A stretch of DNA of 32,000 bases from Pseudoalteromonas sp. G4 (GCF_028875915.1 NZ_JAPEHW010000010.1:41455-73454), one strand, 5' to 3'; counted from the stretch's first letter, positions 922 to 31,661 are shown. Notes: generated by a model not told the origin, from the sequence alone. Numbers and translations: made by a program.

Positions 922-2126
922 TGAGCTTCTTGAGCACACAACAGCGTCAAGTGCTGGCTGAACTATGCCAGCAAAACGATACTCCGTTCTACGTTTATGA
1001 TCTCGATAAACTGGCTGCGCATTTAACCACCTTAACATCACAAAATGTGGTGAAACTATGGTATGCCGTTAAAGCTAACCCGCTATCAGATATTATTCAA
1101 ACGTTAGATAAATGCGGCTTTGACTTTGATGTCGCCAGTAGTGGCGAACTCAATCAGGTGCTCGCTCAGGGTATTGATGCTAAACGTGTGCTCAACACTG
1201 GACCTGCCAAATCTAAAAAGCAGATCCAACACTTTCTAAACAAAGGTGTTCGCACCTTTGTTGCCGAAAGTCATAATCAAGTGGTTTGGTTAAACCAAGC
1301 AGCAAGCGAGCATGATATTAGGCTTCGCATATTATTGCGTGTTCAATTGCGCTGGCCAGACAGTGAAAAAAACCCACTTGGTGGCGACAGCTTAACACCG
1401 TTTGGGCTTGGCTGTGATGATTGGGCTTCACTTAATATTTCAGACTTCCCTGCGCTCGATTTTGCCGGTTTACATATTTTCCAGTGGGGCAATATGTTAA
1501 GCAGTGACAAACTTGCCGAGCTATGGCGCGCCATGATTGCACCACTTCAAACGTTAAGTGCTCAGCTTGGTTTTAAATTACGTATTTTGGATTTAGGCGG
1601 AGGCTTAGGCATCCCGTATACCGAACAAGCAGAGCGTTTAGTGTGGCCGCAATTATTAGATGCTCTTGATAACATCAAGCAGGCAGTTGGTTGTGATGAA
1701 CTTTGGATGGAACTCGGCCGTTATGCTGTAGGTGAAGTTGGTTTTTATGCCAACCCTGTCGTTGAGCAAAAACAAAACTATGGCGCGAATCAACTGATTG
1801 TTGCAGGCGGTATTAATCACATTTTACGCCCTGCAGTCACTAATCAAGCCTTCCCAGCAGAATTACTTCGCCAGTCAAATGCTGAAACTAAGTCGTTTTT
1901 AGTGCACGGACCACTGTGTACTGCGCTTGATAGTTTAGGTGAGTTTTCGCTTGCTGCAGATATCAATGAAACTGACTGGCTGATTTTCTCACAGTGCGGA
2001 GCATATGGTTTTACTGAAAGTATGCCGTACTTTTTATGCCATGAATTACCTGCTGAATACACTGTTAAACAAGGGCAAATAAGCTGTGTTAGACGTGCTG
2101 AAAGCGCTGATTATTACTTGAGATAA
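921..2126 (+). CDS. PLP-dependent decarboxylase of the Orn/DAP/Arg (group IV, alanine-racemase fold) family, LysA-like
   Basis: 401-aa ORF. N-terminal TPFYVYD ... YAVKANP motif (PLP lysine) and a GGGLGIPY glycine-rich loop are typical of diaminopimelate/ornithine decarboxylases. Its start overlaps the dapD-like stop (TAATG at 919-923). Confidence 0.75.
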   Translation: MSFLSTQQRQVLAELCQQNDTPFYVYDLDKLAAHLTTLTSQNVVKLWYAVKANPLSDIIQTLDKCGFDFDVASSGELNQVLAQGIDAKRVLNTGPAKSKKQIQHFLNKGVRTFVAESHNQVVWLNQAASEHDIRLRILLRVQLRWPDSEKNPLGGDSLTPFGLGCDDWASLNISDFPALDFAGLHIFQWGNMLSSDKLAELWRAMIAPLQTLSAQLGFKLRILDLGGGLGIPYTEQAERLVWPQLLDALDNIKQAVGCDELWMELGRYAVGEVGFYANPVVEQKQNYGANQLIVAGGINHILRPAVTNQAFPAELLRQSNAETKSFLVHGPLCTALDSLGEFSLAADINETDWLIFSQCGAYGFTESMPYFLCHELPAEYTVKQGQISCVRRAESADYYLR

Positions 2127-2128
2127 CC

Positions 2129-3241
2129 ATGAACCAAATTACCCAAGAAAACATTCAAGTTGGTGAAATTGCTAACGGCTTACCACTGACTATTCCGGTT
2201 TATCGCCTTACAGGCAATGGCACTGGGCCAAGTGTTTACATTCAAGCAAATATGCATGGCGCTGAAGTACAAGGTAATGCCGTTATTTACCAACTGCTTG
2301 AAAAATTAAAGCAACAAACCTTAGCATCAAGTATTACCTTAGTACCGTATGCCAACCCAATTGGTTGCAACCAGAAATCAGGTGAATTTACGTTAGGCCG
2401 TTTTGATCCAATTACCGGTACCAACTGGAATCGTATGTATCAAAACCATACACATTTGGTAGAAAATTTTGTGGCTGAATTTAGTGATGCCAGCGTGGAT
2501 ACCATTAAAACCGAATTTAAAAAGCGTTTGGTTGCAGCAACAGCTGCTATTTTAGATGGCCCAAGTTACACCCTCAATACCGGTAAACGTATTGCGCTTA
2601 ATCTACAAAAGTTAGCTCACCAAGCAGACATTGTGCTCGACCTACACACAGGACCAATCTCAGCTAAGCATTTATATTGCCCTGACTATGCCAAAGACAG
2701 TGCGCGCTATTTTGATATTGAACACATACTGCTGATTCCAAATGAGTTTGACGGTGCAATGGACGAAGCCAACTTTTGTCCATGGTGGCAATTGAGTGAA
2801 ACATACAAATCAATTGGTAGAGAGATCCCTGTATTAGTTGAAGCATTTACCGTGGAGCTTGGTTCACAAGAAAAAATTGATCTTAGCGAAGCTGAAAACG
2901 ATGCAAATAGCATCTTAAGCTATTTAACCTATAAAGAAGCCTTACTTGACTCACAGTTTAAGCCACAACCAATTACGCGCTATGCGTGTTACTTAAACGA
3001 TTATCTAGCGTTCTACGCCCCTATGGGAGGCATGGTTGAATACACCGCAGAGTTAGGCAGTCATATAAAGGCTGGCGATACTATTGCCAAAATTTTACGT
3101 ATGGAACGCTATTTATCAGAGCAACCGCTTAATCACATTACGCTAGATAAAGATGCTATCACTATTTTGCATTTTGCCTCAGCCAGTGTAAATCAAGGTA
3201 CTGAGCTTTATAAGTTTTTCACAAATTATTTTGAATTGTAA
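2129..3241 (+). CDS. Succinylglutamate desuccinylase/aspartoacylase (AstE/AspA) family zinc deacylase
   Basis: 370-aa ORF. GPSVYIQANMHGAEVQGN (H-x-x-E zinc motif) and the later VLDLHTG histidine motif are the family signature. It starts 2 nt after the decarboxylase stop. Confidence 0.7.
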   Translation: MNQITQENIQVGEIANGLPLTIPVYRLTGNGTGPSVYIQANMHGAEVQGNAVIYQLLEKLKQQTLASSITLVPYANPIGCNQKSGEFTLGRFDPITGTNWNRMYQNHTHLVENFVAEFSDASVDTIKTEFKKRLVAATAAILDGPSYTLNTGKRIALNLQKLAHQADIVLDLHTGPISAKHLYCPDYAKDSARYFDIEHILLIPNEFDGAMDEANFCPWWQLSETYKSIGREIPVLVEAFTVELGSQEKIDLSEAENDANSILSYLTYKEALLDSQFKPQPITRYACYLNDYLAFYAPMGGMVEYTAELGSHIKAGDTIAKILRMERYLSEQPLNHITLDKDAITILHFASASVNQGTELYKFFTNYFEL

Positions 3242-16000: not shown

Positions 16001-16654
16001 TTGTCCTCTTCTCTAAAACATCTCTTGTTAAGCTTAACCCTACTCGCTCTTTTTGAGGCTAAAGCCAGTGTTACTCTTTTAATTACAGATCAGCACAGCC
16101 AACCTCTAGAAAATGCGCTTATTGAAATAGAGCTCAAGCAAAAAAACGCACGAAAGCAAGCAGACAAAAACCTTTATGTAATGGACCAAATTAACAAAAC
16201 ATTCAAACCTCATATTTTAGCTATTCCACAACATGCTTTGGTAAATTTTCCCAATAGTGATGATATTCGTCACCATGTTTACTCGTTTTCAAAAGTTAAG
16301 CCCTTTGAGTTGAAGCTATACGCAGGAAAACCTAAATCACCTATTTCATTTGAACAATTAGGTGTTGCCGTTTTAGGGTGCAATATTCATGATTCAATGG
16401 TGGGATATATTTATATTCACGATAACAATCTAATCTACCAAAGCGATAGTAGCGGCATAATAAATCTCGAAGCTCCCATCAATTCAATTGCTAACGCGTG
16501 GCTTTGGCACCCAAGAAACAGCAAAGGGGTAAACCAAAAGGAAATAATCGACGTAAATACCCTAACTCAAAATGATAGCCCTGTAATAAAACTAACTATT
16601 ATGCCGCCTGAAACTAGAGAAAGCTTTGAAGATGTTTTTAAATCAGCTCAATAA
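16001..16654 (+). CDS. Secreted protein of unknown function
   Basis: 217-aa ORF with a TTG start. It has a signal peptide (LLLSLTLLALFEAKA) and a beta-rich sequence containing several His residues (RHHVYSF, CNIHDSM). I do not recognise the family with confidence. It overlaps the next gene by 29 nt, so it is probably co-transcribed. Confidence 0.5.
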   Translation: MSSSLKHLLLSLTLLALFEAKASVTLLITDQHSQPLENALIEIELKQKNARKQADKNLYVMDQINKTFKPHILAIPQHALVNFPNSDDIRHHVYSFSKVKPFELKLYAGKPKSPISFEQLGVAVLGCNIHDSMVGYIYIHDNNLIYQSDSSGIINLEAPINSIANAWLWHPRNSKGVNQKEIIDVNTLTQNDSPVIKLTIMPPETRESFEDVFKSAQ

Positions 16655-20192: not shown

Positions 20193-20318
20193 CTTAATTT
20201 ATTCGTAACTGGCTTAACCACCAGCAAGCAAACCCTTTTTAACGCAAGACTTAAATCGACTTTTTAACTATTGGCAAAAAATTGGCGTTATTTAGGATGG
20301 AACTATCACAAATAAAAA

Positions 20319-20348
20319 AGCCCAAGCTAAAACACTTGGGCTTTTTTA
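20319..20348 (+). terminator. Rho-independent terminator ending the backbone operon
   Basis: agcccaag-ctaaaaca-cttgggct 8-bp stem followed by TTTTTT, with an A-run upstream. Confidence 0.8.
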
Positions 20349-20495
20349 TTGAATTTGTTGAGTCAGCCTATAAGACAACTGAACATAACTGTAAGCATTT
20401 GATTTTATTAAAGGCTTGAAATCTGAAAACTGAAATTTAGTGCAACCGTGTACCAGTTTGGTATATCACGATTCTGAAATGTAGGGGTTTTAGAA

Positions 20496-20670: not shown

Positions 20671-21594
20671 TTACTCTTCCTTTTGAAAAGGTAATTCACA
20701 AACTATGCTTTCAAAGCGTTGATCTGCGATAAGCACTTCTTGCTCAATCCATTGTTCATTAACAACAAGTTGGGAAAGAGAGTTAGGAGGGCTTATTTCA
20801 GACCATTTTAATTTATTAGTTCCTGCCAACGATTTTCGTCGCACAGTATCCCAATGTGAGGGGATCCAAATTGAAACTTCTCTTCCAAGAGCAGATGCTA
20901 GTTGTTCTGCAATTTGAATCCCATTTGGATCTAAGTCTGGAAAGTGAACCCAACTTAGTTTGTCAAAAAACTTATTTATAAAGCAAGCCACTGCAGAAAA
21001 GTCCTGTCCAGGAGAATAAATCAATAAAACGCTATCATGTATAGGAAAGTCTACAAATGCTCCAAGATTTTCAACCGTGACAATTAAAGTCGTCGTGGAT
21101 ATTGCTATCTGAGCAATTTGTAACATTAAACGTTGAGGAATCAAGACTTCCGTTCTAATGCGAGTTTCCTCATCTGCGTTTATTGTGATAGAACCTTTGA
21201 GAGCGATTTTAAGGCTAGTGTTAAAACTACGTAACCTTATAACTTCATCAGTCGTTACAATCTGCCCGTTCATTAGGGGATCTTTTTTATTATTTTTGCT
21301 GTCACCTCTCCATGCTGCCGCAGTTTTGTGATGAATCCAGTGCATTTTTCTCAATACATTAGCTGTACCAGTTTTTGCTGGAGTTCGAACAGAGTGTATT
21401 AACTTGTCCAGACGTTCAGTTGCAATCAATGTCCATTTGCCATCCTGAAATCGTACGATTTCCAACTGTACAAGATAATCTACTAGCTTTGCTTGTCGTT
21501 GCCTTTTAGGAAGCACTCCCTCCTGCCTGAGTTCCTTCAGTACAGCTAACACCATCCTAGGTGGTAAATCTAATTCCTTAATTGAATGCATCAT
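20671..21594 (-). CDS. jetD: Toprim-domain nuclease subunit of the JetD/MksG type (short form)
   Basis: The C-terminal half has LIVTVENLGAFVDF (Toprim glutamate) and SWVHFPDLDPNGIQIAEQL (DxD), the pattern of the JetD/DUF2220 Toprim domain (E-N-x-x-x-F ... G-D-x-D-x-x-G-x-x-I). It is the fourth gene of a MukFEB-like operon. The ORF track starts at 21639 (322 aa). ATG 21594 or 21591 (307/306 aa) reduces the overlap with the upstream gene from 62 nt to 17 or 14 nt. Confidence 0.7.
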   Translation of the reverse strand: MMHSIKELDLPPRMVLAVLKELRQEGVLPKRQRQAKLVDYLVQLEIVRFQDGKWTLIATERLDKLIHSVRTPAKTGTANVLRKMHWIHHKTAAAWRGDSKNNKKDPLMNGQIVTTDEVIRLRSFNTSLKIALKGSITINADEETRIRTEVLIPQRLMLQIAQIAISTTTLIVTVENLGAFVDFPIHDSVLLIYSPGQDFSAVACFINKFFDKLSWVHFPDLDPNGIQIAEQLASALGREVSIWIPSHWDTVRRKSLAGTNKLKWSEISPPNSLSQLVVNEQWIEQEVLIADQRFESIVCELPFQKEE

Positions 21595-24500
21595 TTTTTT
21601 CCGTTTCTTTAAGCATGTCCTCCATAAATTTATCCTCATTCATAGTAAGCTCCTCCGCATCTCTAATGCCACTAACCATGACTTGATGCCTACTCTTATC
21701 GCTAGTAATATGTCTTACCAGTTGGTATCCAGTACCAATAATTTTACCTAATGACTCTGGAGCTGCTAATAGAATTTGACTTCCCGTTCGTACTGCAAGT
21801 TCATGAACAGTTTTCTGCGAATGAGCATCTAATCTAGACGCTTCATCAAGCACAAGTGGTATAGCAAACGGTTTTCTTTCATGGGACATACGTCCCCAGT
21901 TTTTGAGTATTGCAATTAACACTACTAGTCCTGAACCAATTCGCTCACCTGTGGATAAACTACTATCATCCAATGGTTCAAAACTATCACTTCCTTTACG
22001 CCTTATTTCGGTATTAACCATCAAGTAGTTTTTGTGGTCAAGCAGCTTTTCACCCTCAATACGTCCACCAGTAGTGATATGAAACAATCTGCTCAATGCT
22101 TCACTTATATCGTTTGTGTCATTGAACAAGTCATCCATTGTTTGACTACCCGCTCTTAGCGCATTTAAAGTAGCGTCAAAACCTGCCTTTGATATTGGAA
22201 CCAATCGAATTTCTTCAATTTGTCCGAACTGAATACCTCTCATTTCATGGCTAAGCTGCCTTATTGCTTTCTGCTCATCTTGGACTCGACGAGCAATAGC
22301 ATTCCCCAGCTCAGAACGATCAGTTTTAAATTGCTCTTCGGCATTACTTAAAGCTTTAGTAGCAATTTGGCAGGCGCTTTCTAATTGCTGCAACATTTCT
22401 TCTGGCTCTAGGCTACGAATAAGGTCTTGGCGTGCACGACGCCTGAAAAGCTGAACAGCTTCTGCATAACATTCGATAGGGCTTACCCCAGACATATTTT
22501 CCATTAACTTGTTTAGGAAAATAGAAAATGGATCACTCTCAGGTAATCCATACTTTACAGTATCACCAAAAATCCCGCTTAAGTGTCCAGTATTTAATTT
22601 AAACCCAGCCGATGGTATGTTACGTAAAAATTCCCGTACCATCGGTTGTAAGGTATTTCCAACATTTGCCTCATCAACTTTATTAATTAGCATATTACGT
22701 TCTTCTAACCACTTGGAACGTTGCTCCGAAGCTTCTCGTAACTCTTCTTCTAGAGCCTGCTCTTTTTTAACTAGTTCCTCTGCCCTTGCCTTAATAGTTT
22801 CAATGGCTGTTTCTAATTTCGTATGTTGTTGCTTAAGCTCTGTAACTTTTAGTTCTAAGGAAGCCTGTTGCTTTTTTAAGTGTTTTTCTAATTTTGGCTC
22901 ATAACAAAACTCTAACTCCGCAAGACTAGCCCGCGATGTTCTGATGAGACTTTCTTTTCCTCCAATCTCTGCCAATAACTCCGCATAGAGTTTATCTACT
23001 TCACTTTCCTTTTCGCGTGTATTCAGTCCCTGATTCCTTAATGTATTAACTTTAGTGGATAATATTGCATGTTGATTACGCAACAATGTTGTTGAACTCT
23101 CCTGTTCTTCTAATATTTTGCTTGCTTGTTGATAAGGTTCAGTGAAATGTTCTACCACGCTTGAAAGTGTATGTAGGTCACGAAGTATTTCCGCAGCCCT
23201 TGAATAATCAACACTTGCTTTAGCAGCATCTTGGCGTAATTGCTCTGGATTTTCTGGGTATTGTTGACGAATTAACAGTATGTTTTGTTCTATATACAAG
23301 ACTGTAGACTGATAGCATGCAAGCTGCCTTTTGGCCTTTTCACATATGGAAATTTGCTCACTACACAAGGTAATTTCTGAAACAAAGTCTCTAAAAAGTA
23401 CCGAAACTTGCGGCAAGTGTTGATCAAGTACACGGACATGTTCTTTAATTTTAGAGTCTCTCGTTTTTGCCAAATCCAATTGTTCAGATAGTACGCTCTT
23501 TTTATTGGTGACTTTATTAATTTGCTCTTGTAACGATTCAACCGCAGGCTCATCACCGAAAGCTAAAACGAGGTTAGATTGAAGATGTTGGCAATCCGTA
23601 CACGAACGTTCAATTGAACGTATGTTGGATTCAACTTCCTCAAGTTTCTGTGATGTTTCTGTCACTTGACTTTCAAGTAAAGCAATCATCCTTTCACGGG
23701 CTCTATCCCCTAAAACAGGTGAAGTTCGTATTTGGCTAATTCGTAGCCCATTGTTTTCACTTAAAACGCACCATGGTGGATCTATCTCTTGCTCACCTCC
23801 AACAAATTGTGATGTGATATCAGTAAACAATAAATCGTAGTCGAACTCACCAGAACGTAATTGCTCTATCGTTGTTCCGGCACGAAGTTTAATCAAAACA
23901 ACATCTGGTAATGACCATTCTCCCCCTTGCTCTGCTAATAACGTGCGAGCTGCTGCTTCTGGATCACTGACAATAATACCTTGTGACAGTAAACCTAACG
24001 CCGCTTCGGTAAAACCTGCTTCTTCTATAGAAATATCGGCATATAAATCAGTTACGGCAACACCATTAATACTTGCAGCAAATTGTCTCAATACTTCAAT
24101 GGTTCCTGTTTCGCAATCTCGCAATTCGTTGAGTCGTTGCTCGTTAAGTTGTATGGAGGTATCCATGATACTGCGCTGCTCACGCAGTGAATTCAAAGTT
24201 GATTTAATGCTTATCAGAAATTTGGGGAGTGTTTCTGCGTTCAACTGGTCGTTAGGGTGACGCTCTATTAGCCGACTTACTACTGGCTGATACCTTTGCC
24301 ATTCATTGTGTAATGCTTCAGTTCGAACCAACTCTTCTTCTAGGGCCAGCAACTTCTCTGCAATAGACTCTAATTCAGATTGAAGCCTTAATTTATTTTC
24401 TGTTGACTCTTCTCTAGCTTCCTTTCGTTCGTTAAGTAAATCTAAATAATCGGTATCCTCACTTGGAATGCGAGGTAATTCAGCTTGTTGTAGGATACGG

Positions 24501-26125
24501 AAGATCCCTTTAGCTTGTTCTTGTTCTCGCTTTAAAGCTGCCAATTCTCGATTTAACCCATTGAGTTGTGCTGCTTGAGGCTCCCACTCTCGCAAGTGTT
24601 CTAACTTTTGCAAAAACCACGCTTGAGCTTGCCTAGGGTCTGCTGAATCTCCCGTTAAGCGAATTTTTTCAGCTACAGATGTATGGGCTTTAATAATATC
24701 ATCAACTTGCTGTGCCATCTGATCTAAATCATTGGACAGACGGCTCAATTCAGTAACCTTTGCTTTCTCACACAGGATAATCTCTGGCAATTTTTTAAGT
24801 ACCACGGGACTACCAATTTTCTTTTCTATCTGTGAATGCAAAGATACGGCATGGGAGTACAACCCAGCCTTTTTTTGGGCTATTTCGAATCGTGTTACAG
24901 CATCAGCAAGTTGTGCATTGATAGCTTCAATATTTTCATTGAGACTAGCCATTTCATTGCGTTGTTGAGCAAGCAATTTTTTAACTTTTTCCTGATCCTG
25001 CTCCAAGTTAATTTTCTTAGGTTCCAAGCACTTTAATTCTGTCGACGCCTTTTCAAGCTGCGCAAAATAAATAGCCCCAGCATTTGCGCTCTCAACCCGC
25101 TTGAGTATGTCCTGGTAGTCATGCTCAATGATTAAAAGGTTCTCCTTAATTTCGTCAATTTTGGAAGTGTTGAGTTTGTGTTGGGACTTGTTCTCTTCAA
25201 CTAATTTTTCAATTTTAGATTTCTGGTTTTGACTTTTGGTCAAAGAATTATCTGCCTCTTCAAACCTGAACTCTACTTCCACCCAAGCTTCTACTGAAAG
25301 TGCCGCACTTCTTTTTAGCAACTTGTTGAAAAACTCGTAGTCTTTCGAATTGCGATTTAGCTCTTCTCGGGTTTGTCGCAGTTTACTCATAGTCCCTTGA
25401 AGAACACCAACAACACTTTGAATATTTGTCCTTGATTGAGTTATCAAGAATTCGCTCAAATGGCGTTCAATGGCTCTATCTCGCTTTCCAGCCATTGCAC
25501 TGTGAAATATCTGTGCTAACTTCCTTTTGTCAGGAGTACTTTGACATGCTCTTGGCAGAATGCCATCTCGAAATAAATCATACATATAAGCATCCATGCC
25601 ATCGTAGGATACAAAACCACAGCCATGCTCGGCTGCTTTATCTCTGATTAAACCTGCCGTAGCTGGTGACAACGTATGTTCATGGTACTCCACCAGACAG
25701 TCTAAAGGCTTAACGTTATGAGGAAGAGTTAAACGAAAGCATTTCACCTCCAACCTCGTGCCGCTTTCTCTTTCACACCTCACAACATAAAGTACTTGCT
25801 CCGAGCCATCACGAGACTGTATTTCAAGGCCTATGAGAGATGGATGTCCCAGACGATCAAACATCTCAGCATCTTGCATTTTTTGCTTTACATTGAAATC
25901 GTCTGAAGTACCTAAACTGACATAGCGTACATCAGGAATTAAAGAGAATATGAAAGCACCTAATAGTGTAGTTTTGCCCGCACCATTGTTACCTAGTAGA
26001 CTGACCGTCGTGCCATACTGCTTACTCGCATTAAATTCATGCGGATTAACAAGATCTAAGGTACGTGCACTGATGCCATTAACATTTACAAGTGTTAATG
26101 ACTTAATTAGCGGATACATACTCAT
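21578..26125 (-). CDS. jetC: MukB-like SMC ATPase (JetC/MksB equivalent), 1515 aa
   Basis: Collinear with E. coli MukB as I recall it.
- N-terminus: KSLTLVNVNGISARTLDL...GNNGAGKTT vs RSLTLINWNGFFARTFDL...GGNGAGKST.
- Hinge: YADISIEEAGFTEAALGLLSQGIIV...SPVLGDRARERMI vs [25 protein letters not shown]...VPLFGRAARESRI.
- C-terminal head: LLDHKNYL...LSTGERIGSGLVVLIAILKNW...LVLDEASRLDAHS...LLAAPE vs LLDYRNYL...[21 protein letters not shown]...LFLDEAARLDARS...IIAAPE.
- Long heptad-rich arms lie in between. Confidence 0.88.
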   Translation of the reverse strand: MSMYPLIKSLTLVNVNGISARTLDLVNPHEFNASKQYGTTVSLLGNNGAGKTTLLGAFIFSLIPDVRYVSLGTSDDFNVKQKMQDAEMFDRLGHPSLIGLEIQSRDGSEQVLYVVRCERESGTRLEVKCFRLTLPHNVKPLDCLVEYHEHTLSPATAGLIRDKAAEHGCGFVSYDGMDAYMYDLFRDGILPRACQSTPDKRKLAQIFHSAMAGKRDRAIERHLSEFLITQSRTNIQSVVGVLQGTMSKLRQTREELNRNSKDYEFFNKLLKRSAALSVEAWVEVEFRFEEADNSLTKSQNQKSKIEKLVEENKSQHKLNTSKIDEIKENLLIIEHDYQDILKRVESANAGAIYFAQLEKASTELKCLEPKKINLEQDQEKVKKLLAQQRNEMASLNENIEAINAQLADAVTRFEIAQKKAGLYSHAVSLHSQIEKKIGSPVVLKKLPEIILCEKAKVTELSRLSNDLDQMAQQVDDIIKAHTSVAEKIRLTGDSADPRQAQAWFLQKLEHLREWEPQAAQLNGLNRELAALKREQEQAKGIFRILQQAELPRIPSEDTDYLDLLNERKEAREESTENKLRLQSELESIAEKLLALEEELVRTEALHNEWQRYQPVVSRLIERHPNDQLNAETLPKFLISIKSTLNSLREQRSIMDTSIQLNEQRLNELRDCETGTIEVLRQFAASINGVAVTDLYADISIEEAGFTEAALGLLSQGIIVSDPEAAARTLLAEQGGEWSLPDVVLIKLRAGTTIEQLRSGEFDYDLLFTDITSQFVGGEQEIDPPWCVLSENNGLRISQIRTSPVLGDRARERMIALLESQVTETSQKLEEVESNIRSIERSCTDCQHLQSNLVLAFGDEPAVESLQEQINKVTNKKSVLSEQLDLAKTRDSKIKEHVRVLDQHLPQVSVLFRDFVSEITLCSEQISICEKAKRQLACYQSTVLYIEQNILLIRQQYPENPEQLRQDAAKASVDYSRAAEILRDLHTLSSVVEHFTEPYQQASKILEEQESSTTLLRNQHAILSTKVNTLRNQGLNTREKESEVDKLYAELLAEIGGKESLIRTSRASLAELEFCYEPKLEKHLKKQQASLELKVTELKQQHTKLETAIETIKARAEELVKKEQALEEELREASEQRSKWLEERNMLINKVDEANVGNTLQPMVREFLRNIPSAGFKLNTGHLSGIFGDTVKYGLPESDPFSIFLNKLMENMSGVSPIECYAEAVQLFRRRARQDLIRSLEPEEMLQQLESACQIATKALSNAEEQFKTDRSELGNAIARRVQDEQKAIRQLSHEMRGIQFGQIEEIRLVPISKAGFDATLNALRAGSQTMDDLFNDTNDISEALSRLFHITTGGRIEGEKLLDHKNYLMVNTEIRRKGSDSFEPLDDSSLSTGERIGSGLVVLIAILKNWGRMSHERKPFAIPLVLDEASRLDAHSQKTVHELAVRTGSQILLAAPESLGKIIGTGYQLVRHITSDKSRHQVMVSGIRDAEELTMNEDKFMEDMLKETEKNDAFN

Positions 26126-26904
26126 TCGTTTTCTTCCTTTTCAGTGCTAAAAGGGAAACTGAACATATCCATATTTTCCACTCGGTGGTTTAGATTTTCG
26201 GACCAATGTTCAGTATCTATTTCGACATTATTTGACTTCTCGCTTGGTGCGGGAGATGCAATTAAATAGCCTTCACGACTGAGACTCTCAATTTTTTCAG
26301 CTAGTTCGCTTTCATCACGTAGTCCTCTTAAAGGCTCCACAAATCTATAAATAGCAGCTGTTGGCCAGAAGGAAGTTTTATCCTTAGAAAGGTTCAGAAA
26401 ATTCAATCTTGACAAAATACTGAGGCGTTTCGTTGTTTCTGCGAGAACTTTGCTTTGGTCAAATTCAGTCTTTACTACTCCTTTCCTGCGATATAAGTCG
26501 GCAAACCTGCTATCACTAAGTTGAGAGCGTAGACGTTCAATAAGATGGCCTGTGGTCAGCCATTCATAATCTGCCGCTGATTTATCAAGTTGCATAGCGA
26601 CGATGGTCAGCCCTATCACCATCGTCAGTTGGTCAAGACGGCTCTTGGGAATTAATGTACGACGTTGCGGTTGAAGGAAGTAGACGCCTTCATTTGTACA
26701 TTCAAGTGAGAGGTAAAATTTTTGATAGTACTTTGTTAACTCAGTTTCCGCTTGCTGTAAAAAACTATGTAGATGATCATATTCATCCGTAATATTTACT
26801 CCTGCTCGCAGTCGGTAGTCTGTCTCAGGAAATACATCATCATCCAATACATCAAGAATTGAATCGTACAGTTTTTCGTTATTACTAGCTTGCTCTTTAA
26901 TCAT
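26122..26904 (-). CDS. jetB: MukE-like subunit (JetB/MksE equivalent)
   Basis: 260-aa ORF. FLQQAETELTKYYQKFYLSLECTNEGVYFLQPQRRTLIPKSRLDQLTMVIG parallels MukE [51 protein letters not shown], and the protein has an acidic C-terminal tail. ATGA overlap with the downstream SMC gene. GAGGGAG lies just upstream of its ATG. Confidence 0.8.
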   Translation of the reverse strand: MIKEQASNNEKLYDSILDVLDDDVFPETDYRLRAGVNITDEYDHLHSFLQQAETELTKYYQKFYLSLECTNEGVYFLQPQRRTLIPKSRLDQLTMVIGLTIVAMQLDKSAADYEWLTTGHLIERLRSQLSDSRFADLYRRKGVVKTEFDQSKVLAETTKRLSILSRLNFLNLSKDKTSFWPTAAIYRFVEPLRGLRDESELAEKIESLSREGYLIASPAPSEKSNNVEIDTEHWSENLNHRVENMDMFSFPFSTEKEENE

Positions 26905-26910
26905 ACTCCC

Positions 26911-28269
26911 TCACTTAACTATCCATTGTTGTTCAATTTCAATATTTCCCGCATTGTCTAAGCGAACCCACTCTGGCTTCAGAGTCTTCCTTGCCCAATG
27001 CCCTTGCTCCAACAGTTGATTTACGACGAAAAACAAAAGACGGTGACGATCTGTTTCAGTAAACGTTTCGTTCTTCAGAATTCTCTGAGCAACCTTTGTG
27101 ACATCGACTTCATTACCTTTGTTGAGTATTCTGTGACTCATTCGTTTTGCCAATTGCTCCAATTGCGCACTAGGCGTATTTCGAATTACGTCATTTTCAT
27201 CACACTGCATTGGCAGTGAGTAATCCTCTGGTGGCGGTGGAGGCTCCCAATCTCGCAATTCAGTCAACGGTTCTGCTGCTAAAATCGAAGGTGACCAAGG
27301 CATATTTGCATGTTGCTGAATAGCATGTTCAATTAATAGATTCATGTTTGCATTTCTGTTCAATGAAATACGTAGTCGAATGGTATCGAGCAAACGTTTA
27401 AAAAAATCTGCCAATTCCAATAGAGCACCAGATGAAAATTCCCGAATTGCATCCAAGTGTGAATGAAGACTATTTAGTGACATTATTAGCATGTCTGGAA
27501 CTTGGCGTTGATAGCCCTTTTCGGTTAGATCATGTATTTGAAACAAGACCTTATCTGCACCGCTAATTATTACTGTCTTCAAATCAGAGATTTGTTCTGC
27601 GATCTCAGTGACTAGAGTTATTAATGACTCTACTTGTTCACTCAGTTCCGCACTGTGCATTTCTTGTATAGTTTGTCGTCTTAGTGAATAACCAAGAATC
27701 AACTGTTCTTGGTTTTTGTTGATCCCCTCCATGAGATCACGAAAAGAAGGTAATGAGGCTTTAATTTTATCATGCCAATCTTGATCTGACTCTACAGTCA
27801 ACATATTTAAATCGGAAAGCATTATTTCAATTTTGAGGTATCGCTGTCCTAGTGTTTCCTGTTGCTCCAAAGGATCTCCAGTGAATGGCTTTAATAGGTC
27901 TTGAGTGAGTTGTGTTAACCTATATAAGCCAGAAGCTTCACTTAAGGACGAACCTGCTAACATTACCAAGCCTTGGTCAATTGAACGCTTTAAGAAGTTA
28001 ATGCCTCTAACTTGTGCATTCCCATCAAACCGATCTAACCAACGGTCTACATAACCAAATATTTCAAGACATCTCTCCTCAGAATAACCAGTATTAGCTA
28101 CCAAGTACCCATCATTTTGAGACTGCTCCCATAGACTCATTGCTGCTAGATACATAAGTTCATTTGTCTCAAGCATCAAAGTTGGCTCAGCCAACCTAAT
28201 TCTGCTCAACAGCTCTGTTAGTCCAAGCTGATTAGTTGAAGTAACAATATCGACCTCCCTGTTACTCAT
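26911..28269 (-). CDS. jetA: MukF-like kleisin subunit (JetA/MksF equivalent)
   Basis: 452-aa ORF, first in the operon, similar in size and order to MukF (440 aa). Local resemblance: SGLYRLTQLTQDLL vs MukF NAIYRLTPLGIGIT. The C-terminal winged-helix-like end EWVRLDNAGNIEIEQQWIVK parallels [20 protein letters not shown]. A central PPPPPEDY linker is consistent with a flexible kleisin middle region. Confidence 0.7.
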   Translation of the reverse strand: MSNREVDIVTSTNQLGLTELLSRIRLAEPTLMLETNELMYLAAMSLWEQSQNDGYLVANTGYSEERCLEIFGYVDRWLDRFDGNAQVRGINFLKRSIDQGLVMLAGSSLSEASGLYRLTQLTQDLLKPFTGDPLEQQETLGQRYLKIEIMLSDLNMLTVESDQDWHDKIKASLPSFRDLMEGINKNQEQLILGYSLRRQTIQEMHSAELSEQVESLITLVTEIAEQISDLKTVIISGADKVLFQIHDLTEKGYQRQVPDMLIMSLNSLHSHLDAIREFSSGALLELADFFKRLLDTIRLRISLNRNANMNLLIEHAIQQHANMPWSPSILAAEPLTELRDWEPPPPPEDYSLPMQCDENDVIRNTPSAQLEQLAKRMSHRILNKGNEVDVTKVAQRILKNETFTETDRHRLLFFVVNQLLEQGHWARKTLKPEWVRLDNAGNIEIEQQWIVK

Positions 28270-28295
28270 TTTTACTACCTTGAAAAATAAACACT

Positions 28296-28467
28296 TACAT
28301 GTAGCTGAAATAATTTAAAGGATTCAAAGTTGGCTACATATTTTAATCTCTAATACGATTTAATTTAATTGAACCTCCACAAAACCAAACCGTGTTAGAC
28401 AAACTGTCTACAGATAATTATTATGTATATATAAACTACATGTAAATACTGTATACATATATATGTA
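28296..28467. promoter_or_regulatory. Divergent promoter/operator region with repeated TACAT palindromes
   Basis: - TACATGTA at 28296-28303 and again at 28437-28444.
- GCTACATAT at 28333-28341.
- A perfect 14-bp palindrome TACATATATATGTA at 28454-28467.
- A separate 6-3-6 dyad TAGACA-aac-TGTCTA at 28396-28410.
All lie between the divergent jetA-like and WYL genes. Confidence 0.45.
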
Positions 28468-28488
28468 ACAATTTCAGGCAGGTTTTTG

Positions 28489-29346
28489 ATGCAGGACATT
28501 AAATGGGAGCAAATCCTACGATTCAGGTTAATTGAGGTTGTGGTTCTTTGGGAGGGTCGTTTAACAACGAATCATCTATGCTCTGCATTTAGAATTGGTA
28601 GACAGCAAGCTTCAAGAGATATCAACAAGTACCTAAGCCTTTTTGAAAAGCCACAATTGGAGTTAGATCGCTCACTTAAAGGATATAAACCCTCAAAATC
28701 TTTCGAACCTCACTTTAGTCAAGGGACAGTAAACGAATACCTCATGCTATTACATCAACAAAGTCAGATGGTAGAGACATTTGACTTTTTTCAGATGGGG
28801 CACGCGGAATCAACTGTATTGTCGGTACCAGAGCGAACTGTTTCACCTGTGATCGTACGGAGCCTTATTCATGCGGCCAGAGAACAACGCCGAGTAGATA
28901 TTGATTACGTTTCACTTTCCAATCCCAGTATTGCGGGGCGAAACATCGTTCCACATACGATAGTAAATGATGGATTTCGTTGGCATGTGAGGGCATATTG
29001 TGAGTTACATGATGATTATAGAGATTTTGTTTTGAGCAGGTTTCGAAATGAACCTGACTTGCTCGATAAATCTGAGCATGGCCGCGAGAAAGATAACGAC
29101 TGGAATAGATCAACTAGGCTAGAAATTGTACCTAATCCTAACTTAAATGCAGCTCAACAGTTAATCGTAGCTGAAGATTATGGAATGCTTGATAACTGCT
29201 TAGTAATTACATCAAGGAACGCTCTCGTTAAGTATTATGTCCAAAGATTCAATTTGTGTTTAGACAATAATCAATTAAGAGCAAAACCAGAGGCATTCCA
29301 ATTAACAGTCAAAAATCTCAAGTCTGTTCAATATCTATTAATATGA
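28489..29346 (+). CDS. HTH-WYL domain transcriptional regulator (BrxR/CapW-like)
   Basis: The N-terminus RFRLIEVVVLWEGRLTTNHLCSAFRIGRQQASRDINKYL is a winged-HTH of the WYL-regulator type. The central VDIDYVSL...RNIVPHTIVNDGFRWHVRAYCELHDDYRDFVLSRF is a WYL-domain beta-sandwich signature. The about 285-aa size and divergent placement next to a defence operon fit the BrxR/CapW class. ATG 28489 is preferred to TTG 28486. Confidence 0.75.
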   Translation: MQDIKWEQILRFRLIEVVVLWEGRLTTNHLCSAFRIGRQQASRDINKYLSLFEKPQLELDRSLKGYKPSKSFEPHFSQGTVNEYLMLLHQQSQMVETFDFFQMGHAESTVLSVPERTVSPVIVRSLIHAAREQRRVDIDYVSLSNPSIAGRNIVPHTIVNDGFRWHVRAYCELHDDYRDFVLSRFRNEPDLLDKSEHGREKDNDWNRSTRLEIVPNPNLNAAQQLIVAEDYGMLDNCLVITSRNALVKYYVQRFNLCLDNNQLRAKPEAFQLTVKNLKSVQYLLI

Positions 29347-29533: not shown

Positions 29534-30100
29534 ATGACTAAACAAATCGGATACATTCGCGTTAGCTCAGTTGATCAGAACACAGCTCGCCAATTAAGCG
29601 ATGTTAAACTTGATAAGACCTTCGTTGATAAGTGCAGCGGTAAAGATACTAACAGGCCTGCCCTCAAACAGTTAATTGAATATGCTCGAGAAGGGGATGT
29701 AGTTCACTGCCATGACATAAGCCGCATGGCACGTAATACGGAAGACCTTCTTCGGTTAGTTCGCCTATTCAACGAGCAAGGTATTAGTCTGAAGTTCTAT
29801 AAAGAACACCTTGATTTTGCAGGCTCCAGTAATCCCACCCAACAGCTGATGGTCACGCTACTTGGCGCTATATACCAATTCGAGCGGTCTATGATACTTG
29901 AGCGCCAGCGTGAAGGCATAGCCATTGCTAAAGCTAACGGTAAGTACAAAGGTAAAGGCATTAACAAAGAACTACACGAACGGATCAGATTGATGTACGC
30001 TGAGGGCATAAATAAAATGCAGATAGCAAAGGCCCTAGGCTGTGCTAGGGCCACTGTTTACAAAGCTTTAGATTTGAATAATTCAAAACCTGAAAGTTAA
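29534..30100 (+). CDS. Small serine recombinase (resolvase/invertase family)
   Basis: 188-aa ORF. IGYIRVSSVDQNTARQ carries the catalytic serine motif. The catalytic domain contains RPALKQL...GDVVHCHDISRMARN. The E-helix is YQFERSMILERQREGIAIAKANGKYKGK. The C-terminal HTH is INKMQIAKALGCARATVYKAL. Confidence 0.9.
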   Translation: MTKQIGYIRVSSVDQNTARQLSDVKLDKTFVDKCSGKDTNRPALKQLIEYAREGDVVHCHDISRMARNTEDLLRLVRLFNEQGISLKFYKEHLDFAGSSNPTQQLMVTLLGAIYQFERSMILERQREGIAIAKANGKYKGKGINKELHERIRLMYAEGINKMQIAKALGCARATVYKALDLNNSKPES

Positions 30101-30141
30101 CTGTCCGGCTAAAAAGGTGTGTTTATACAATTTCAATTGGG

Positions 30142-30654
30142 CTAGCTTTCGATACCAACATCAGTATACTTTAGATCGCCTTCATCATTAACTTTTGCAG
30201 TAAAACTGAACTCTCCAGAATAGTAAGTACAACTCACGTTAGCTACGCCATAAGGATTGTGAAGCTTAATGATAAGGTAATTCAAGTCTAAATAATCTAT
30301 CTCTGTCATACCCTTATCTGACGAGCTATATGATATCGATACAAACAATGTTGGCTGCAAGAAGGAATCGCCATTTATGGTCACTTCTACCTCAGAAATT
30401 ATGTCTAAATTCTTAATAACCCTTTCGTAAAGGCCTGACAGGAATATTTCATCAGTAGAGTTTAGAGTTGATTCTATTAATGCTAAGTGCTTGGCCGAAA
30501 TACTTTTAAAAAACTTACGTATATCAGCTTGCTGAGTGATTGTAACTTTACCAAACTCACTCACTACCTGTGACCAACTGTTATCAATAAGATTATCGGT
30601 CAGCTCTAAATCTATTAAAAGTGTAGATGGTGTTCGAATTAATAATTCTCTCAT
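30142..30654 (-). CDS. Hypothetical protein, 170 aa, no recognisable family
   Basis: Clean ORF with GGAGAAAA immediately upstream of the ATG on the minus strand (complement of ttttctcc at 30656-30663). It is convergent with the recombinase gene. No motif that I can assign, no signal peptide or TM segment. Confidence 0.5.
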   Translation of the reverse strand: MRELLIRTPSTLLIDLELTDNLIDNSWSQVVSEFGKVTITQQADIRKFFKSISAKHLALIESTLNSTDEIFLSGLYERVIKNLDIISEVEVTINGDSFLQPTLFVSISYSSSDKGMTEIDYLDLNYLIIKLHNPYGVANVSCTYYSGEFSFTAKVNDEGDLKYTDVGIES

Positions 30655-30741
30655 TTTTTCTCCGTGATTTAAGTTAAAAACCTGAAATAAATTTTACTAA
30701 GAATGAGATAACAGTTTTTGTAAGGGAGAGAAGGAATAAAC

Positions 30742-30798
30742 ATGAAAGCATTAAGTCTTGCATTAAATACCACCCAAGCATTATGGTTTAAGCATTAA
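30742..30798 (+). CDS. Possible micro-ORF (18 aa, MKALSLALNTTQALWFKH)
   Basis: The ATG is preceded by a strong purine-rich SD-like tract (GGGAGAGAAGGA, ending 6 nt before the ATG). Too short to evaluate statistically. Confidence 0.2.
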   Translation: MKALSLALNTTQALWFKH

Positions 30799-30899
30799 AC
30801 TACAATTACTCTGTAACATTAAAATTATTTACCAAATATAAAACAAAGACTTAAGACCTTAAATATAAAATATAACCAAACATAGCGGGATCCCCCTGA

Positions 30900-31661
30900 A
30901 TGACTAAATGGGTTGAAGTGAAAAGTGATGAGTTTGAAACGTTTGATAAAGACGAATTTTCGTTATTTAAGCGAATTATCACTGAGAATGAAGAATACGA
31001 ACTTCGCTGGAAGGACAAAAGGCGAGTAATATTATCAATAAGCATCATTAAAGAATTCATAAAATACCTTGAAAAGCATTGTAGGTACTGCAAATCTGAT
31101 GCTGGTGTAACTGATGACTTCATCGAAGAAGCACAAACGTTTTTAAATGAGACTCATGGTGGCAGGTTTTTTGACGACGAATCAATAAGGCAGTGGGCTG
31201 AGTGTTACATTTACACATTAAAAATGGATAATAATTGGCGTAAGTTCAAAACTTGGAAAAATAAAAAGAAGTACCTTAAAAAGACCTCACGCAAAAACAG
31301 TTTGAGGCGATATAAAGTAACCATACAATTAAGCGAATTCAGGTTAGTCATTTACCCTAATGATTGCCGGTCAACTCTAGTTCCCGCTGATAGCAGGTAT
31401 AACAGTTTAGATTTTGAATTTATTGCAGATTTTAAGAAATACTTAACCCAACATTGCAAGCACCCTCCTGCTCAGTTGAAATCCATAGTAGTTGGGTCTG
31501 TTATTGTTTGCTCTCAACTCAAAACCAAACCTTTTTCTAAAGAAGATCATTTAAAGTTATGGAATAAACTCTATCCCGAATTAAGAAACAACTACAGAAC
31601 ATTAAAGAAGTATTATGACTGGCGCAAAAAAGCTAAATACTTAATTAAAACAACCAAATAA
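30900..31661 (+). CDS. Hypothetical lysine-rich protein built from two internal repeats
   Basis: 253-aa ORF. The halves align: IIKEFIKYLEKHCRYC ... IRQWAECYIYTLKMDNNWRKFKTWKNKKKYLKKTSRK against FIADFKKYLTQHCKHP ... HLKLWNKLYPELRNNYRTLKKYYDWRKKAKYLIKTTK. Family not recognised. Confidence 0.55.
   Translation: MTKWVEVKSDEFETFDKDEFSLFKRIITENEEYELRWKDKRRVILSISIIKEFIKYLEKHCRYCKSDAGVTDDFIEEAQTFLNETHGGRFFDDESIRQWAECYIYTLKMDNNWRKFKTWKNKKKYLKKTSRKNSLRRYKVTIQLSEFRLVIYPNDCRSTLVPADSRYNSLDFEFIADFKKYLTQHCKHPPAQLKSIVVGSVIVCSQLKTKPFSKEDHLKLWNKLYPELRNNYRTLKKYYDWRKKAKYLIKTTK

What the first reader, a model, noticed from the sequence alone, without database searches (positions are those of the whole stretch)
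20671..28269. Island-encoded full-length MukF-MukE-MukB paralogue operon fused to a Toprim nuclease gene (Wadjet/MksBEFG-class system on a MukBEF scaffold)
**Operon structure.** Four co-directional genes are translationally coupled.
- The jetA-like stop TGA (26911-26913) lies inside the GAGGGAG upstream of the next ATG at 26904.
- There is an ATGA overlap at 26122-26125.
- The last junction overlaps by 14-62 nt.

**Similarity to MukFEB.** The products match MukF/MukE/MukB in order and in size (452, 260 and 1515 aa against 440, 234 and 1486 aa in E. coli). The similarity is segment by segment.
- The SMC protein shares the MukB N-terminal head (SLTL-N-NG--ART-DL, G-NGAGK-T), the hinge block and the C-terminal head (LSTGE-IG-G, L-LDEA-RLDA-S, AAPE).
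- The 260-aa protein shares the MukE core (G-FYL-P---TLIP-S-L).

**The fourth gene.** It encodes a Toprim protein (VENLGAF ... FPDLDPNG) of the JetD/MksG kind. This gene distinguishes plasmid-restricting Wadjet/MksBEFG systems from housekeeping condensins.

**What looks unusual.**
- The SMC subunit is MukB-sized and MukB-collinear, rather than the roughly 1100-aa JetC/MksB I associate with described Wadjet types.
- The nuclease is short (about 306-322 aa), so it may lack part of the usual N-terminal arm.
- The operon sits in an AT-rich island next to a WYL regulator and a serine recombinase.

It may therefore be a distinct, poorly described subtype, or an evolutionary intermediate between MukBEF and Wadjet.
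Basis: partly seen in the sequence, partly recalled or inferred. Interest (0 to 1): 0.85.

Follow-up and report, generated by a model that had tools for sequence, protein, structure and literature searches.

The report
MukBEF-like plasmid-defence operon with nuclease
This is an accessory four-gene DNA-motor-plus-nuclease operon in a marine Pseudoalteromonas, from the branch of the Wadjet/MksBEFG plasmid-defence family nearest the MukBEF chromosome-segregation machine; the branch is already listed in a published survey, untested, and routinely mislabelled "MukB".

Summary
Four co-directional, overlapping genes on the minus strand (20671-28269) encode a MukF-like kleisin, a MukE-like KITE protein, a 1,515-aa MukB-like SMC ATPase and a ~307-aa Toprim nuclease of the MksG/JetD kind. 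All catalytic motifs are intact. The host is Pseudoalteromonas sp. G4.

PADLOC's type I-III models do not recognise it.

It is not new, however:
- The ~450/~250/~1,500/~320-aa layout is widespread.
- The window's own clade (Shewanella, Vibrio, Salmonella and other Enterobacteriaceae) is already listed as nuclease-bearing "FEBG" operons in Bürmann et al. 2025 (Cell, Data S1).
- In that paper's tree the clade sits one branch outside the pair formed by canonical MukB and a broader FEBG group.

In E. coli the system occurs in 1 of 5,426 complete genomes, beside a canonical mukB and inside a defence island. The "AT-rich island" claim fails (GC 0.400 against 0.402).

The function, extrusion-triggered cleavage of circular DNA, is inferred and not tested. 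Whether strain G4 has a separate canonical mukFEB could not be checked. Novelty: a new member of a known, catalogued but uncharacterised kind.

The parts
26911..28269 (-). MukF-like kleisin (MksF/JetA role), 452 aa
   Evidence: The NCBIfam MukF equivalog aligns residues 17-446 to model positions 8-433 of 440, but at only 65.3 bits (cut-off 407). Pfam KicB is marginal at 23.4 bits. It is 20% identical to E. coli MukF. PGAP names it 'hypothetical protein'.
26122..26904 (-). MukE-like KITE subunit (MksE/JetB role), 260 aa
   Evidence: Pfam MksE 77.6 bits and MukE 65 bits. NCBIfam MukE 62.7 bits against a cut-off of 250. It is 26% identical to E. coli MukE.
21578..26125 (-). MukB-like SMC ATPase (MksB/JetC role), 1,515 aa. 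Walker A lies at 25967-25993, the hinge at about 23630-24139, the signature motif at 21944-21958 and Walker B at 21839-21853.
   Evidence: NCBIfam MukB 1023.9 bits over the full length. Pfam MukB_N and MukB_hinge both hit. The motifs are intact. It is 24% identical to E. coli MukB over residues 7-1465. It falls in a 100%-bootstrap clade with Shewanella, Vibrio and Enterobacteriaceae proteins.
20671..21594 (-). Short MksG/JetD-type Toprim nuclease, 307 aa (the ORF extends to 21639). Catalytic E175 is at 21070-21072 and D220/D222 at 20929-20937.
   Evidence: Pfam JetD_C 30.5 bits and DUF7281 30.7 bits. PADLOC JetD1 hits the C-terminal part only. E, DxD and EQE are invariant in 15 homologues. The AF2 model has pLDDT 86.4. 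Foldseek best hits are MksG 8b7f (8e-7), Topo VI-A, Spo11 and JetD 7til. The family profile aligns to the MksG active site.
28486..29346 (+). Divergently transcribed WYL-domain (BrxR-like) regulator, 286 aa
   Evidence: Pfam WYL 48.7 bits. Homologues at the same position in Vibrio and in a metagenome contig carry WHD_BrxR, WYL and BrxR_CTD. It is 58% identical to the L004 regulator and 32% to one beside a Geobacteraceae locus.
28270..28485 (.). Divergent promoter/operator region (GC 0.264) with AT-rich palindromes at 28416-28473
   Evidence: The two best promoter-like matches of the whole 9.3-kb scan are back to back here, at 28446..28417 (-) and 28396..28424 (+). Inverted repeats are listed. 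The operator role is inferred.
20311..20350 (.). Bidirectional intrinsic-terminator-like hairpin between the globin gene and the operon's 3' end
   Evidence: A 16-bp stem flanked by A and T runs. This is a consensus match only.
29534..30100 (+). Serine recombinase marking a variable cargo slot (context, not part of the system)
   Evidence: Pfam Resolvase and HTH_7. A ≥90%-identical recombinase with the same downstream genes is preceded by different cargo in another Pseudoalteromonas genome.

Best explanation
The locus is an accessory MksBEFG/Wadjet-group DNA-restriction system from the branch of that group nearest to MukBEF.

Inferred mechanism, by analogy with characterised type I and type II Wadjet:
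1. The MukF-like kleisin joins two MukB-like SMC dimers, with MukE-like KITE dimers, into a dimer of motors.
2. The complex loads on DNA and extrudes loops using ATP.
3. On a small circular molecule extrusion runs to completion and the motors stall.
4. The stalled complex recruits or activates a dimer of the short Toprim nuclease, which cleaves the DNA through its Glu/Asp-x-Asp metal site.
5. The divergent WYL/BrxR-like protein probably represses both promoters until a signal is received.

Shown here: gene content and order, translational coupling, intact ATPase and Toprim motifs, the nuclease fold, phylogenetic placement, sporadic island-borne distribution, and coexistence with a canonical mukB in E. 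coli.

Inferred: assembly, loop extrusion, target specificity, cleavage and regulation.
For: - Four coupled genes are present with intact motifs.
- The nuclease fold matches MksG, JetD and Topo VI-A, and the active-site alignment to MksG holds.
- The same operon is conserved in Vibrio, Shewanella, Enterobacteriaceae and a metagenome contig, often with a BrxR/WYL regulator and next to Tn7-like or IS elements.
- Clade members are listed as FEBG Wadjet-group operons in Bürmann et al. 2025 (PMC7617805 Data S1). There is a direct link: QYJ90828.1 is in the same 90% cluster as P0199.
- In E. coli it occurs in 1 of 5,426 complete genomes, in an island with a Gabija-like pair, a STAND NTPase, a toxin-antitoxin and integrases, while the canonical mukB is in 5,426 of 5,426.
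- The slot next to the resolvase holds other cargo in another Pseudoalteromonas.
- RefSeq already names the fourth gene of the E. coli copy a JetD-domain protein.
Against: - No member of this clade has been tested experimentally.
- PADLOC Wadjet models give no JetA or JetB hit and only partial JetC and JetD hits.
- The nuclease's N-terminal region is about 60-90 residues shorter than in type I/II JetD, so docking to the motor may differ.
- Composition does not mark the operon as foreign.
- Whether Pseudoalteromonas sp. G4 has a separate canonical mukFEB was not established (one search was inconclusive).
Confidence: 0.8

Rival explanations
1. It is a second housekeeping condensin, for example one serving the Pseudoalteromonas chromid or backing up MukBEF. 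On this view the Toprim protein would be an accessory topoisomerase-like factor rather than a defence nuclease.
For: The SMC passes NCBI's MukB equivalog cut-off, and PGAP names it MukB. Composition is the same as the core genome. Nuclease-less Mks systems such as P. aeruginosa MksBEF do act on chromosomes (PMC10586767).
Against: - Distribution is sporadic: 1 of 5,426 E. coli genomes, and no other Pseudoalteromonas among the SMC hits.
- The context is an island or hotspot.
- The nuclease triad is invariant.
- The kleisin gene is split in some strains, which would not be tolerated for an essential function.
- MukF and MukE scores are far below the equivalog cut-offs.
Confidence: 0.07
2. It is a defence system, but its target or trigger differs from type I Wadjet. 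Possible targets are phage genomes, phage-plasmids or conjugative elements, or there may be a different DNA size threshold set by the MukB-length arms and the shortened nuclease.
For: The arms are MukB-sized and collinear with MukB. The nuclease's N-terminal region is shorter. The kleisin and KITE subunits are divergent. It co-occurs with anti-phage systems in the E. coli island.
Against: All Wadjet systems tested so far (types I and II) restrict circular plasmids by extrusion-cleavage (10.1101/2025.03.10.642339). Nothing in the sequence points to a different sensor.
Confidence: 0.1
3. It is a decaying, non-functional remnant.
For: The kleisin genes are split in E. coli DETEC-P881 and V. vulnificus L003.
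Against: In the window all four ORFs are intact and coupled, and every catalytic motif is preserved.
Confidence: 0.03

Closest known systems
FEBG operons of the same clade listed in Bürmann et al. 2025 (Cell; PMC7617805, Data S1): Shewanella sp. FJAT-53555 cluster 636, Salmonella Paratyphi B SPB7 cluster 505 and Vibrio parahaemolyticus cluster 356
   Same: They share the gene order F-E-B-G and sizes (428-485, 256-260, 1,518-1,527 and 315-324 aa). They form the same SMC clade: 36-43% identity to the window, 100% bootstrap in my tree, and QYJ90828.1 shares a 90% cluster with P0199.
   Different: The window is a Pseudoalteromonas member only 36-43% identical to them. Its closest relatives (71% identity) are unnamed metagenome sequences. 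The paper lists these operons but does not discuss or test them.
Broad 'MukBEF-like FEBG' group (e.g. Sorangium cellulosum So ce56 cluster 169, Massilia, Pseudomonas lini, many Myxococcota and Planctomycetota)
   Same: It has the same four-gene layout and sizes (~440-470, ~220-250, ~1,470 and ~320-335 aa). The short nuclease is homologous over its full length. Its SMC also exceeds the MukB equivalog cut-off.
   Different: Its MukF and MukE are much closer to canonical ones (NF003615 336-367 bits against 58-65; NF003602 116-121 against 63-65). In the published tree it, not the window's clade, is the sister of canonical MukB. Its hosts are not taxa known to me to carry MukBEF.
Canonical MukBEF (E. 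coli mukF-mukE-mukB)
   Same: Gene order, subunit sizes, full-length collinearity of the SMC, and the MukB-type N-terminal head and hinge domains.
   Different: Canonical MukBEF has no nuclease gene, is a core gene set (5,426 of 5,426 E. coli genomes) and forms a separate clade. The window's proteins are only 20%, 26% and 24% identical to E. coli MukF, MukE and MukB.
Type I Wadjet / MksBEFG (E. coli GF4-3 and P. aeruginosa PA14 JetABCD; C. glutamicum MksBEFG)
   Same: It is a four-subunit SMC-kleisin-KITE-Toprim system. The nuclease fold and its active-site Glu and DxD match MksG and JetD. The presumed extrusion-cleavage mechanism is the same.
   Different: Type I has a JetC of about 1,100 aa with DUF3375 and DUF4194 partners and a JetD of about 400 aa. 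None of those models match here beyond the Toprim core. The nuclease's N-terminal region is about 60-90 residues shorter here.
Type II Wadjet (Neobacillus vireti; 10.1101/2025.03.10.642339) and type III Wadjet
   Same: They have longer SMC arms than type I, and type II has a MukB-like hinge. PADLOC's JetC3 and JetD3 profile lengths (1,471 and ~350 positions) resemble this system's sizes.
   Different: Type II has a tandem KITE protein of about 400 aa. PADLOC's type II and III models give only marginal, partial hits to the window's clade.

Membership tests
Wadjet / MksBEFG group (broad sense) | Operon encoding a kleisin, a KITE protein, an SMC ATPase and a Toprim nuclease | tested here: met
   The same operon is conserved in relatives.
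Wadjet / MksBEFG group (broad sense) | Intact SMC ATPase motifs (Walker A, signature, Walker B) | tested here: met
   GNNGAGKTT, LSTGE and VLDEA are present.
Wadjet / MksBEFG group (broad sense) | MksG/JetD fold with the catalytic Glu and DxD of the Toprim domain | tested here: met
   E175, D220 and D222 are invariant in 15 homologues. Foldseek hits 8b7f and 7til. The profile aligns to the MksG active site.
Wadjet / MksBEFG group (broad sense) | SMC falls inside the Mks/Wadjet group in a phylogeny | tested here: met
   A clade-mate, QYJ90828.1, is in the published tree. It is linked to my clade by shared cluster membership, and my own NJ tree gives the clade bootstrap 100.
Wadjet / MksBEFG group (broad sense) | ATP-dependent restriction or cleavage of circular plasmid DNA | not testable with these tools
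   This needs transformation assays or in vitro reconstitution.
Wadjet types I-III as defined by PADLOC v2.0 models | All four proteins match JetA/B/C/D models of one type at full length | tested here: not met
   There are no JetA or JetB hits. JetC2 scores 22.5 bits on a partial match, and JetD1 scores ≤40 bits on the Toprim core only. Relatives behave the same way.
Wadjet type II | Tandem KITE subunit with four winged-helix domains (~400 aa) | tested here: not met
   The KITE protein is 260 aa with a single MukE/MksE match. The feature itself is taken from 10.1101/2025.03.10.642339.
Canonical MukBEF condensin | MukB equivalog model (NF003422) above its cut-off | tested here: met
   1023.9 bits against a cut-off of 699, over the full length.
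Canonical MukBEF condensin | MukF and MukE equivalog models above their cut-offs | tested here: not met
   MukF scores 65.3 against 407, and MukE scores 62.7 against 250.
Canonical MukBEF condensin | No associated MksG/JetD nuclease | tested here: not met
   A Toprim nuclease gene overlaps the SMC gene's stop codon.
Canonical MukBEF condensin | Core-genome gene set that groups with E. coli MukB | tested here: not met
   It forms a separate clade. The E. coli relative is in 1 of 5,426 genomes, while the canonical mukB is in all of them.
Canonical MukBEF condensin | It is the only mukFEB of the host genome | tested here: inconclusive
   The G4 genome could not be searched. The MukE search listed only the 120 best hits, all Enterobacterales.
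BrxR-type WYL regulators of defence islands | N-terminal winged helix, a WYL domain and the BrxR C-terminal domain, encoded next to a defence system | tested here: inconclusive
   Only the WYL domain scores in the window's protein. Positional homologues carry WHD_BrxR, WYL and BrxR_CTD, and one of them is 58% identical to the window's protein.

The most novel reading that the evidence does not exclude
This clade may be a MukBEF-proximal Wadjet lineage specialised to live in cells that already run a housekeeping MukBEF. Every named host is in Alteromonadales, Vibrionales or Enterobacterales.

Its SMC keeps MukB-like scores and full-length collinearity. Its kleisin and KITE subunits, however, have diverged disproportionately. 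MukF model scores are about 5.6-fold lower and MukE scores about 1.9-fold lower than in the broad FEBG group, which lives in hosts not known to carry MukBEF. SMC scores are equal or higher.

That pattern would fit selection for insulation from the host's MukF and MukE, that is, for avoiding mixed complexes. If so, the clade would be a natural test-bed for how a nuclease-armed SMC motor and its domesticated relative coexist, and for whether MukB-length arms change the plasmid-size threshold.
Probability: 0.2. Interest if true: 0.6.

Novelty: new member of a known kind. Interest (0 to 1): 0.38.

Why it matters
- **Annotation.** NCBI's MukB equivalog model passes these defence-system SMCs, so they are named "chromosome partition protein MukB". 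This includes a Salmonella sequence seen on at least 1,000 contigs. PADLOC's Wadjet models miss the system. Second "mukB" genes in Salmonella, Klebsiella, Vibrio, Shewanella and Pseudoalteromonas are therefore probably unrecognised plasmid-restriction systems. That matters for plasmid and resistance-gene flow, and for the genetic tractability of these strains.
- **Evolution.** The two lineages nearest to canonical MukBEF both carry the nuclease. This fits the published hypothesis that MukBEF is a domesticated Wadjet that lost its nuclease. The point was already made in Bürmann et al. 2025, Figure S1A.
- **Experiment.** The E. coli and Salmonella members offer a tractable model in which a nuclease-armed MukBEF-like complex and the housekeeping MukBEF share one cell.

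Tried and rejected
1. **Canonical Muk in Pseudoalteromonas.** A homology search with E. coli MukE returned 1,940 hits but listed only the best 120, all Enterobacterales. Two literature searches also gave nothing. The question stays unresolved.
2. **SMC homology search.** The search with the window's SMC returned only its own clade. Canonical MukBs did not reach the candidate list because coiled-coil words saturated it. E. coli MukB was therefore taken from NC_000913.3 instead.
4. **Rooting my NJ tree.** I tried rooting on the 'short' SMCs of 990-1,211 aa. Most of them proved to be truncated ORFs of the same broad group and were not monophyletic, so only the unrooted groupings and distances are used.
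5. **MukB partner-binding residues.** I checked the ParC-binding acidic hinge residues and the AcpP site, with residue numbers recalled from memory. The alignment is unreliable in the hinge insertion and the coiled coil, so no conclusion is drawn.
6. **Plasmid-borne copies.** tblastn against 72,556 plasmids found no member of the clade. It found only a Burkholderia megaplasmid DUF2220 gene and an Aeromonas chromosome filed as a plasmid.
7. **A named 'type IV' Wadjet.** No paper uses such a term.
8. **Aeromonas orphan nuclease as a relic of mukFEB-G.** The 7 kb between it and mukB holds unrelated genes and an IS605 TnpB, so no link can be claimed.
9. **tRNA integration site.** There are no tRNA genes in the window.

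Full report
**Observation.** The four minus-strand ORFs exist exactly as reported.
- The junctions are as described: the TGA at 26913-26911 lies 6 nt upstream of the ATG at 26904, inside a GAGGGAG; there is an ATGA overlap at 26125-26122; and the last junction overlaps.
- The fourth gene most likely starts at the ATGATG at 21594/21591, giving 307/306 aa and a 17/14-nt overlap. The identical database protein is 306 aa, and all homologues align from that point.
- The 15-residue extension from 21639 is not conserved in any homologue.

**What the four proteins are.**
- The 1,515-aa protein matches NCBI's MukB equivalog model end to end (1023.9 bits, cut-off 699). It carries the Pfam MukB N-terminal and MukB hinge domains.
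- Its Walker A (GNNGAGKTT), signature (LSTGE) and Walker B (VLDEA) motifs are intact.
- The 452-aa and 260-aa proteins align collinearly to the MukF and MukE models but far below the equivalog cut-offs (65 against 407; 63 against 250). They are 20% and 26% identical to E. coli MukF and MukE.
- The fourth protein hits JetD_C and DUF7281 over its C-terminal half.
- In an alignment of its 15 homologues, the Toprim glutamate (TVENLGAF), the DxD (F-D-x-D-P-x-G) and a C-terminal EQE are invariant.
- An AlphaFold2 model (mean pLDDT 86.4) finds C. glutamicum MksG (8b7f), topoisomerase VI-A, Spo11 and P. aeruginosa JetD (7til) as its only significant matches among solved structures.
- The family profile aligns to the MksG active site.
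- The model shows one N-terminal winged-helix-like unit, a linker and a β-rich element ahead of the Toprim domain.
- The Toprim core begins near residue 164. It maps to model positions of about 220-260 out of 382-430 in the JetD1 and JetD2 models, so the N-terminal part is some 60-90 residues shorter.

**Host and setting.**
- Exact-sequence look-up identifies the window as Pseudoalteromonas sp. G4. PGAP calls the SMC 'chromosome partition protein MukB' and the kleisin 'hypothetical protein'.
- To the left lie core genes: typA, glnA, ntrBC, signalling proteins and a globin. To the right lie a divergent WYL regulator and a serine recombinase.
- The operon is not AT-rich relative to its surroundings (GC 0.400 against 0.402, with the same GC3). 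There is no tRNA gene in the window.
- Accessory status rests on comparison instead. In another Pseudoalteromonas genome, the same recombinase (≥90% identity) and its downstream genes are preceded by a D12 methyltransferase and an unknown 500-aa protein rather than this operon.
- No other Pseudoalteromonas SMC of this type appeared among the homologues.
- The 216-bp divergent intergenic region (GC 0.264) holds the two best promoter-like matches of the region, back to back, overlapping AT-rich palindromes. That layout suits autoregulated repression by the WYL protein, which is an inference.

**Relatives.**
- The short nuclease has only 15 clusters in the word-indexed search. An exhaustive profile search finds 552 representative clusters, 130 of them at E<1e-30. 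Nearly all of the 150 best-scoring listed are 310-340 aa, apart from fragments.
- A scan of species-representative genomes and scripted ORF calling show the same four-gene layout in two groups.
- Group (i) is the window's own clade: Vibrio, Shewanella, Phytobacter, Klebsiella, Kluyvera, Tatumella, Scandinavium, and also Salmonella, E. coli, E. albertii, Pectobacterium, Hafnia and Photorhabdus. Its SMCs are 36-43% identical to the window's.
- Group (ii) is a broad group in Myxococcota, Planctomycetota, Pseudomonas, Stutzerimonas, Burkholderiales and others, with SMCs of about 1,470 aa and nucleases of about 325 aa.
- So 'MukB-sized SMC plus short nuclease' is a common configuration, not an oddity.
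- PADLOC's Wadjet I-III models recognise neither group.
- Pfam and NCBIfam Muk models match the broad group's kleisin and KITE proteins much better than the window clade's (MukF 336-367 against 58-65 bits; MukE 116-121 against 63-65). SMC scores are similar or higher in the window clade (707-1,016 against 1,024-1,520).

**Is it an extra copy?**
- In E. coli, yes. The system is in 1 of 5,426 complete genomes (strain DETEC-P881), while the canonical mukB is in all 5,426 at ≥95% identity.
- There it lies in an island with a Gabija-like nuclease/UvrD pair, a NACHT-type STAND NTPase, a RelE/ParE toxin-antitoxin and integrases.
- In Vibrio it lies next to Tn7-like genes.
- For strain G4 itself the test could not be run. 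I recall from the literature that Alteromonadales carry MukBEF, but that was not tested here.

**Comparison with what is known.**
- Bürmann et al. 2025 (PMC7617805) surveyed the 'Mks or Wadjet group' for operons with and without MksG.
- Their Data S1 lists FEBG operons in Shewanella sp. FJAT-53555, Salmonella Paratyphi B SPB7 and Vibrio parahaemolyticus with exactly this clade's sizes. It also lists broad-group members such as Sorangium So ce56.
- QYJ90828.1, the Shewanella SMC, is in the same 90% cluster as P0199, which lies inside the window's 100%-bootstrap clade in my tree.
- In their tree, E. coli MukB pairs with the nuclease-less Endozoicomonas operon. That pair is sister (support 100) to the broad FEBG group.
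- After an intervening Azonexus branch (support 84), the window's clade joins as the outer branch of the supergroup, which has support 100.
- My distances agree: E. coli MukB lies at 1.2-1.5 from the broad group and 1.66-1.84 from the window clade.
Nuclease-bearing lineages surround MukBEF, which fits the published domestication hypothesis. But it is already documented (their Figure S1A), and this clade is not MukBEF's nearest armed relative.
- I found no experimental study of this branch and no named 'type IV'.

**Mechanism.**
- By homology with type I and II Wadjet, the most likely function is extrusion-triggered cleavage of small circular DNA. The MukF-like kleisin would dimerise two SMC motors, and the Toprim dimer would act as executioner. 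A WYL/BrxR-type repressor would control expression.
- Only the parts list, motif integrity, fold, phylogeny and genomic context are shown. Assembly, targeting and cleavage are inferred.

**Verdict.** This is a real, correctly read operon. It is a new Pseudoalteromonas member of a catalogued but uncharacterised, MukBEF-proximal branch of the Wadjet/MksBEFG group. Interest is moderate. The main practical points are the systematic 'MukB' mis-annotation and the invisibility of the system to PADLOC. The main open idea is that the strongly diverged kleisin and KITE subunits reflect insulation from the host's own MukBEF.

Noticed in passing
window 29534-31661; L089 7285-12453: A serine recombinase (≥90% identical across many Pseudoalteromonas) and two unknown downstream genes form a conserved module. 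The slot just upstream of it holds different cargo in different strains: this operon in G4, and a D12 methyltransferase plus a 500-aa unknown protein in GCA_037120705.1. It may be a defence hotspot. The module's own region has lower GC (0.334).
   Followed up: partly
L088 15013-16412; L003 3224-4665: The kleisin gene of the system is split into two ORFs in E. coli DETEC-P881 (309 + 167 aa) and in one V. vulnificus strain (378 + 107 aa). This suggests inactivation in some hosts.
   Followed up: no
window 21578-26125; clusters P0201, P0199, P0212: PGAP names these nuclease-associated SMCs 'chromosome partition protein MukB' because they exceed the NF003422 cut-off (window 1,024 bits, Phytobacter 1,520 bits, cut-off 699). 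One Salmonella sequence of this type is seen on at least 1,000 contigs. This is a systematic mis-annotation of a probable defence gene.
   Followed up: partly
L090 8704-9729; L026 9638-10594 (also L028, L029, L036): Orphan ~320-340-aa JetD-like genes with intact E/DxD/EQE motifs occur without any adjacent SMC. In Aeromonas caviae the orphan lies about 7 kb downstream of the canonical mukB, separated by unrelated genes and an IS605 TnpB. In Motilimonas it lies directly downstream of a pentapeptide-repeat protein, a family that includes DNA mimics.
   Followed up: partly
L007-L012 about 2120-3118; L088 13878-14873: In the Enterobacteriaceae sub-clade the operon is always preceded by a co-directional 331-aa protein with no Pfam match (84-92% identical across genera), in place of the WYL regulator seen in Pseudoalteromonas, Shewanella-type and Vibrio loci. 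It may be a fifth component or an alternative regulator.
   Followed up: partly
window about 23630-24139 (SMC hinge): The hinge of the window's clade carries an insertion of about 20 residues relative to E. coli MukB and the broad FEBG group, near E. coli residues 740-756.
   Followed up: no
L019 2282-3082: A WYL regulator 32% identical to the window's sits divergently upstream of a distant broad-group FEBG operon in a Geobacteraceae MAG. The regulator-operon pairing therefore recurs across clades.
   Followed up: no
L088 24786-33221: The E. coli island carrying the relative also holds a Gabija-like pair (ATP-dependent nuclease plus UvrD-family helicase), a 1,467-aa NACHT/STAND NTPase and an unknown 600-aa protein. 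The 600-aa protein lies directly downstream of the nuclease gene and is also present in Phytobacter (94% identity).
   Followed up: no
window 16001-16654: A 217-aa ORF between the large PAS/GAF hybrid histidine kinase and the GGDEF-EAL protein has no Pfam match.
   Followed up: no
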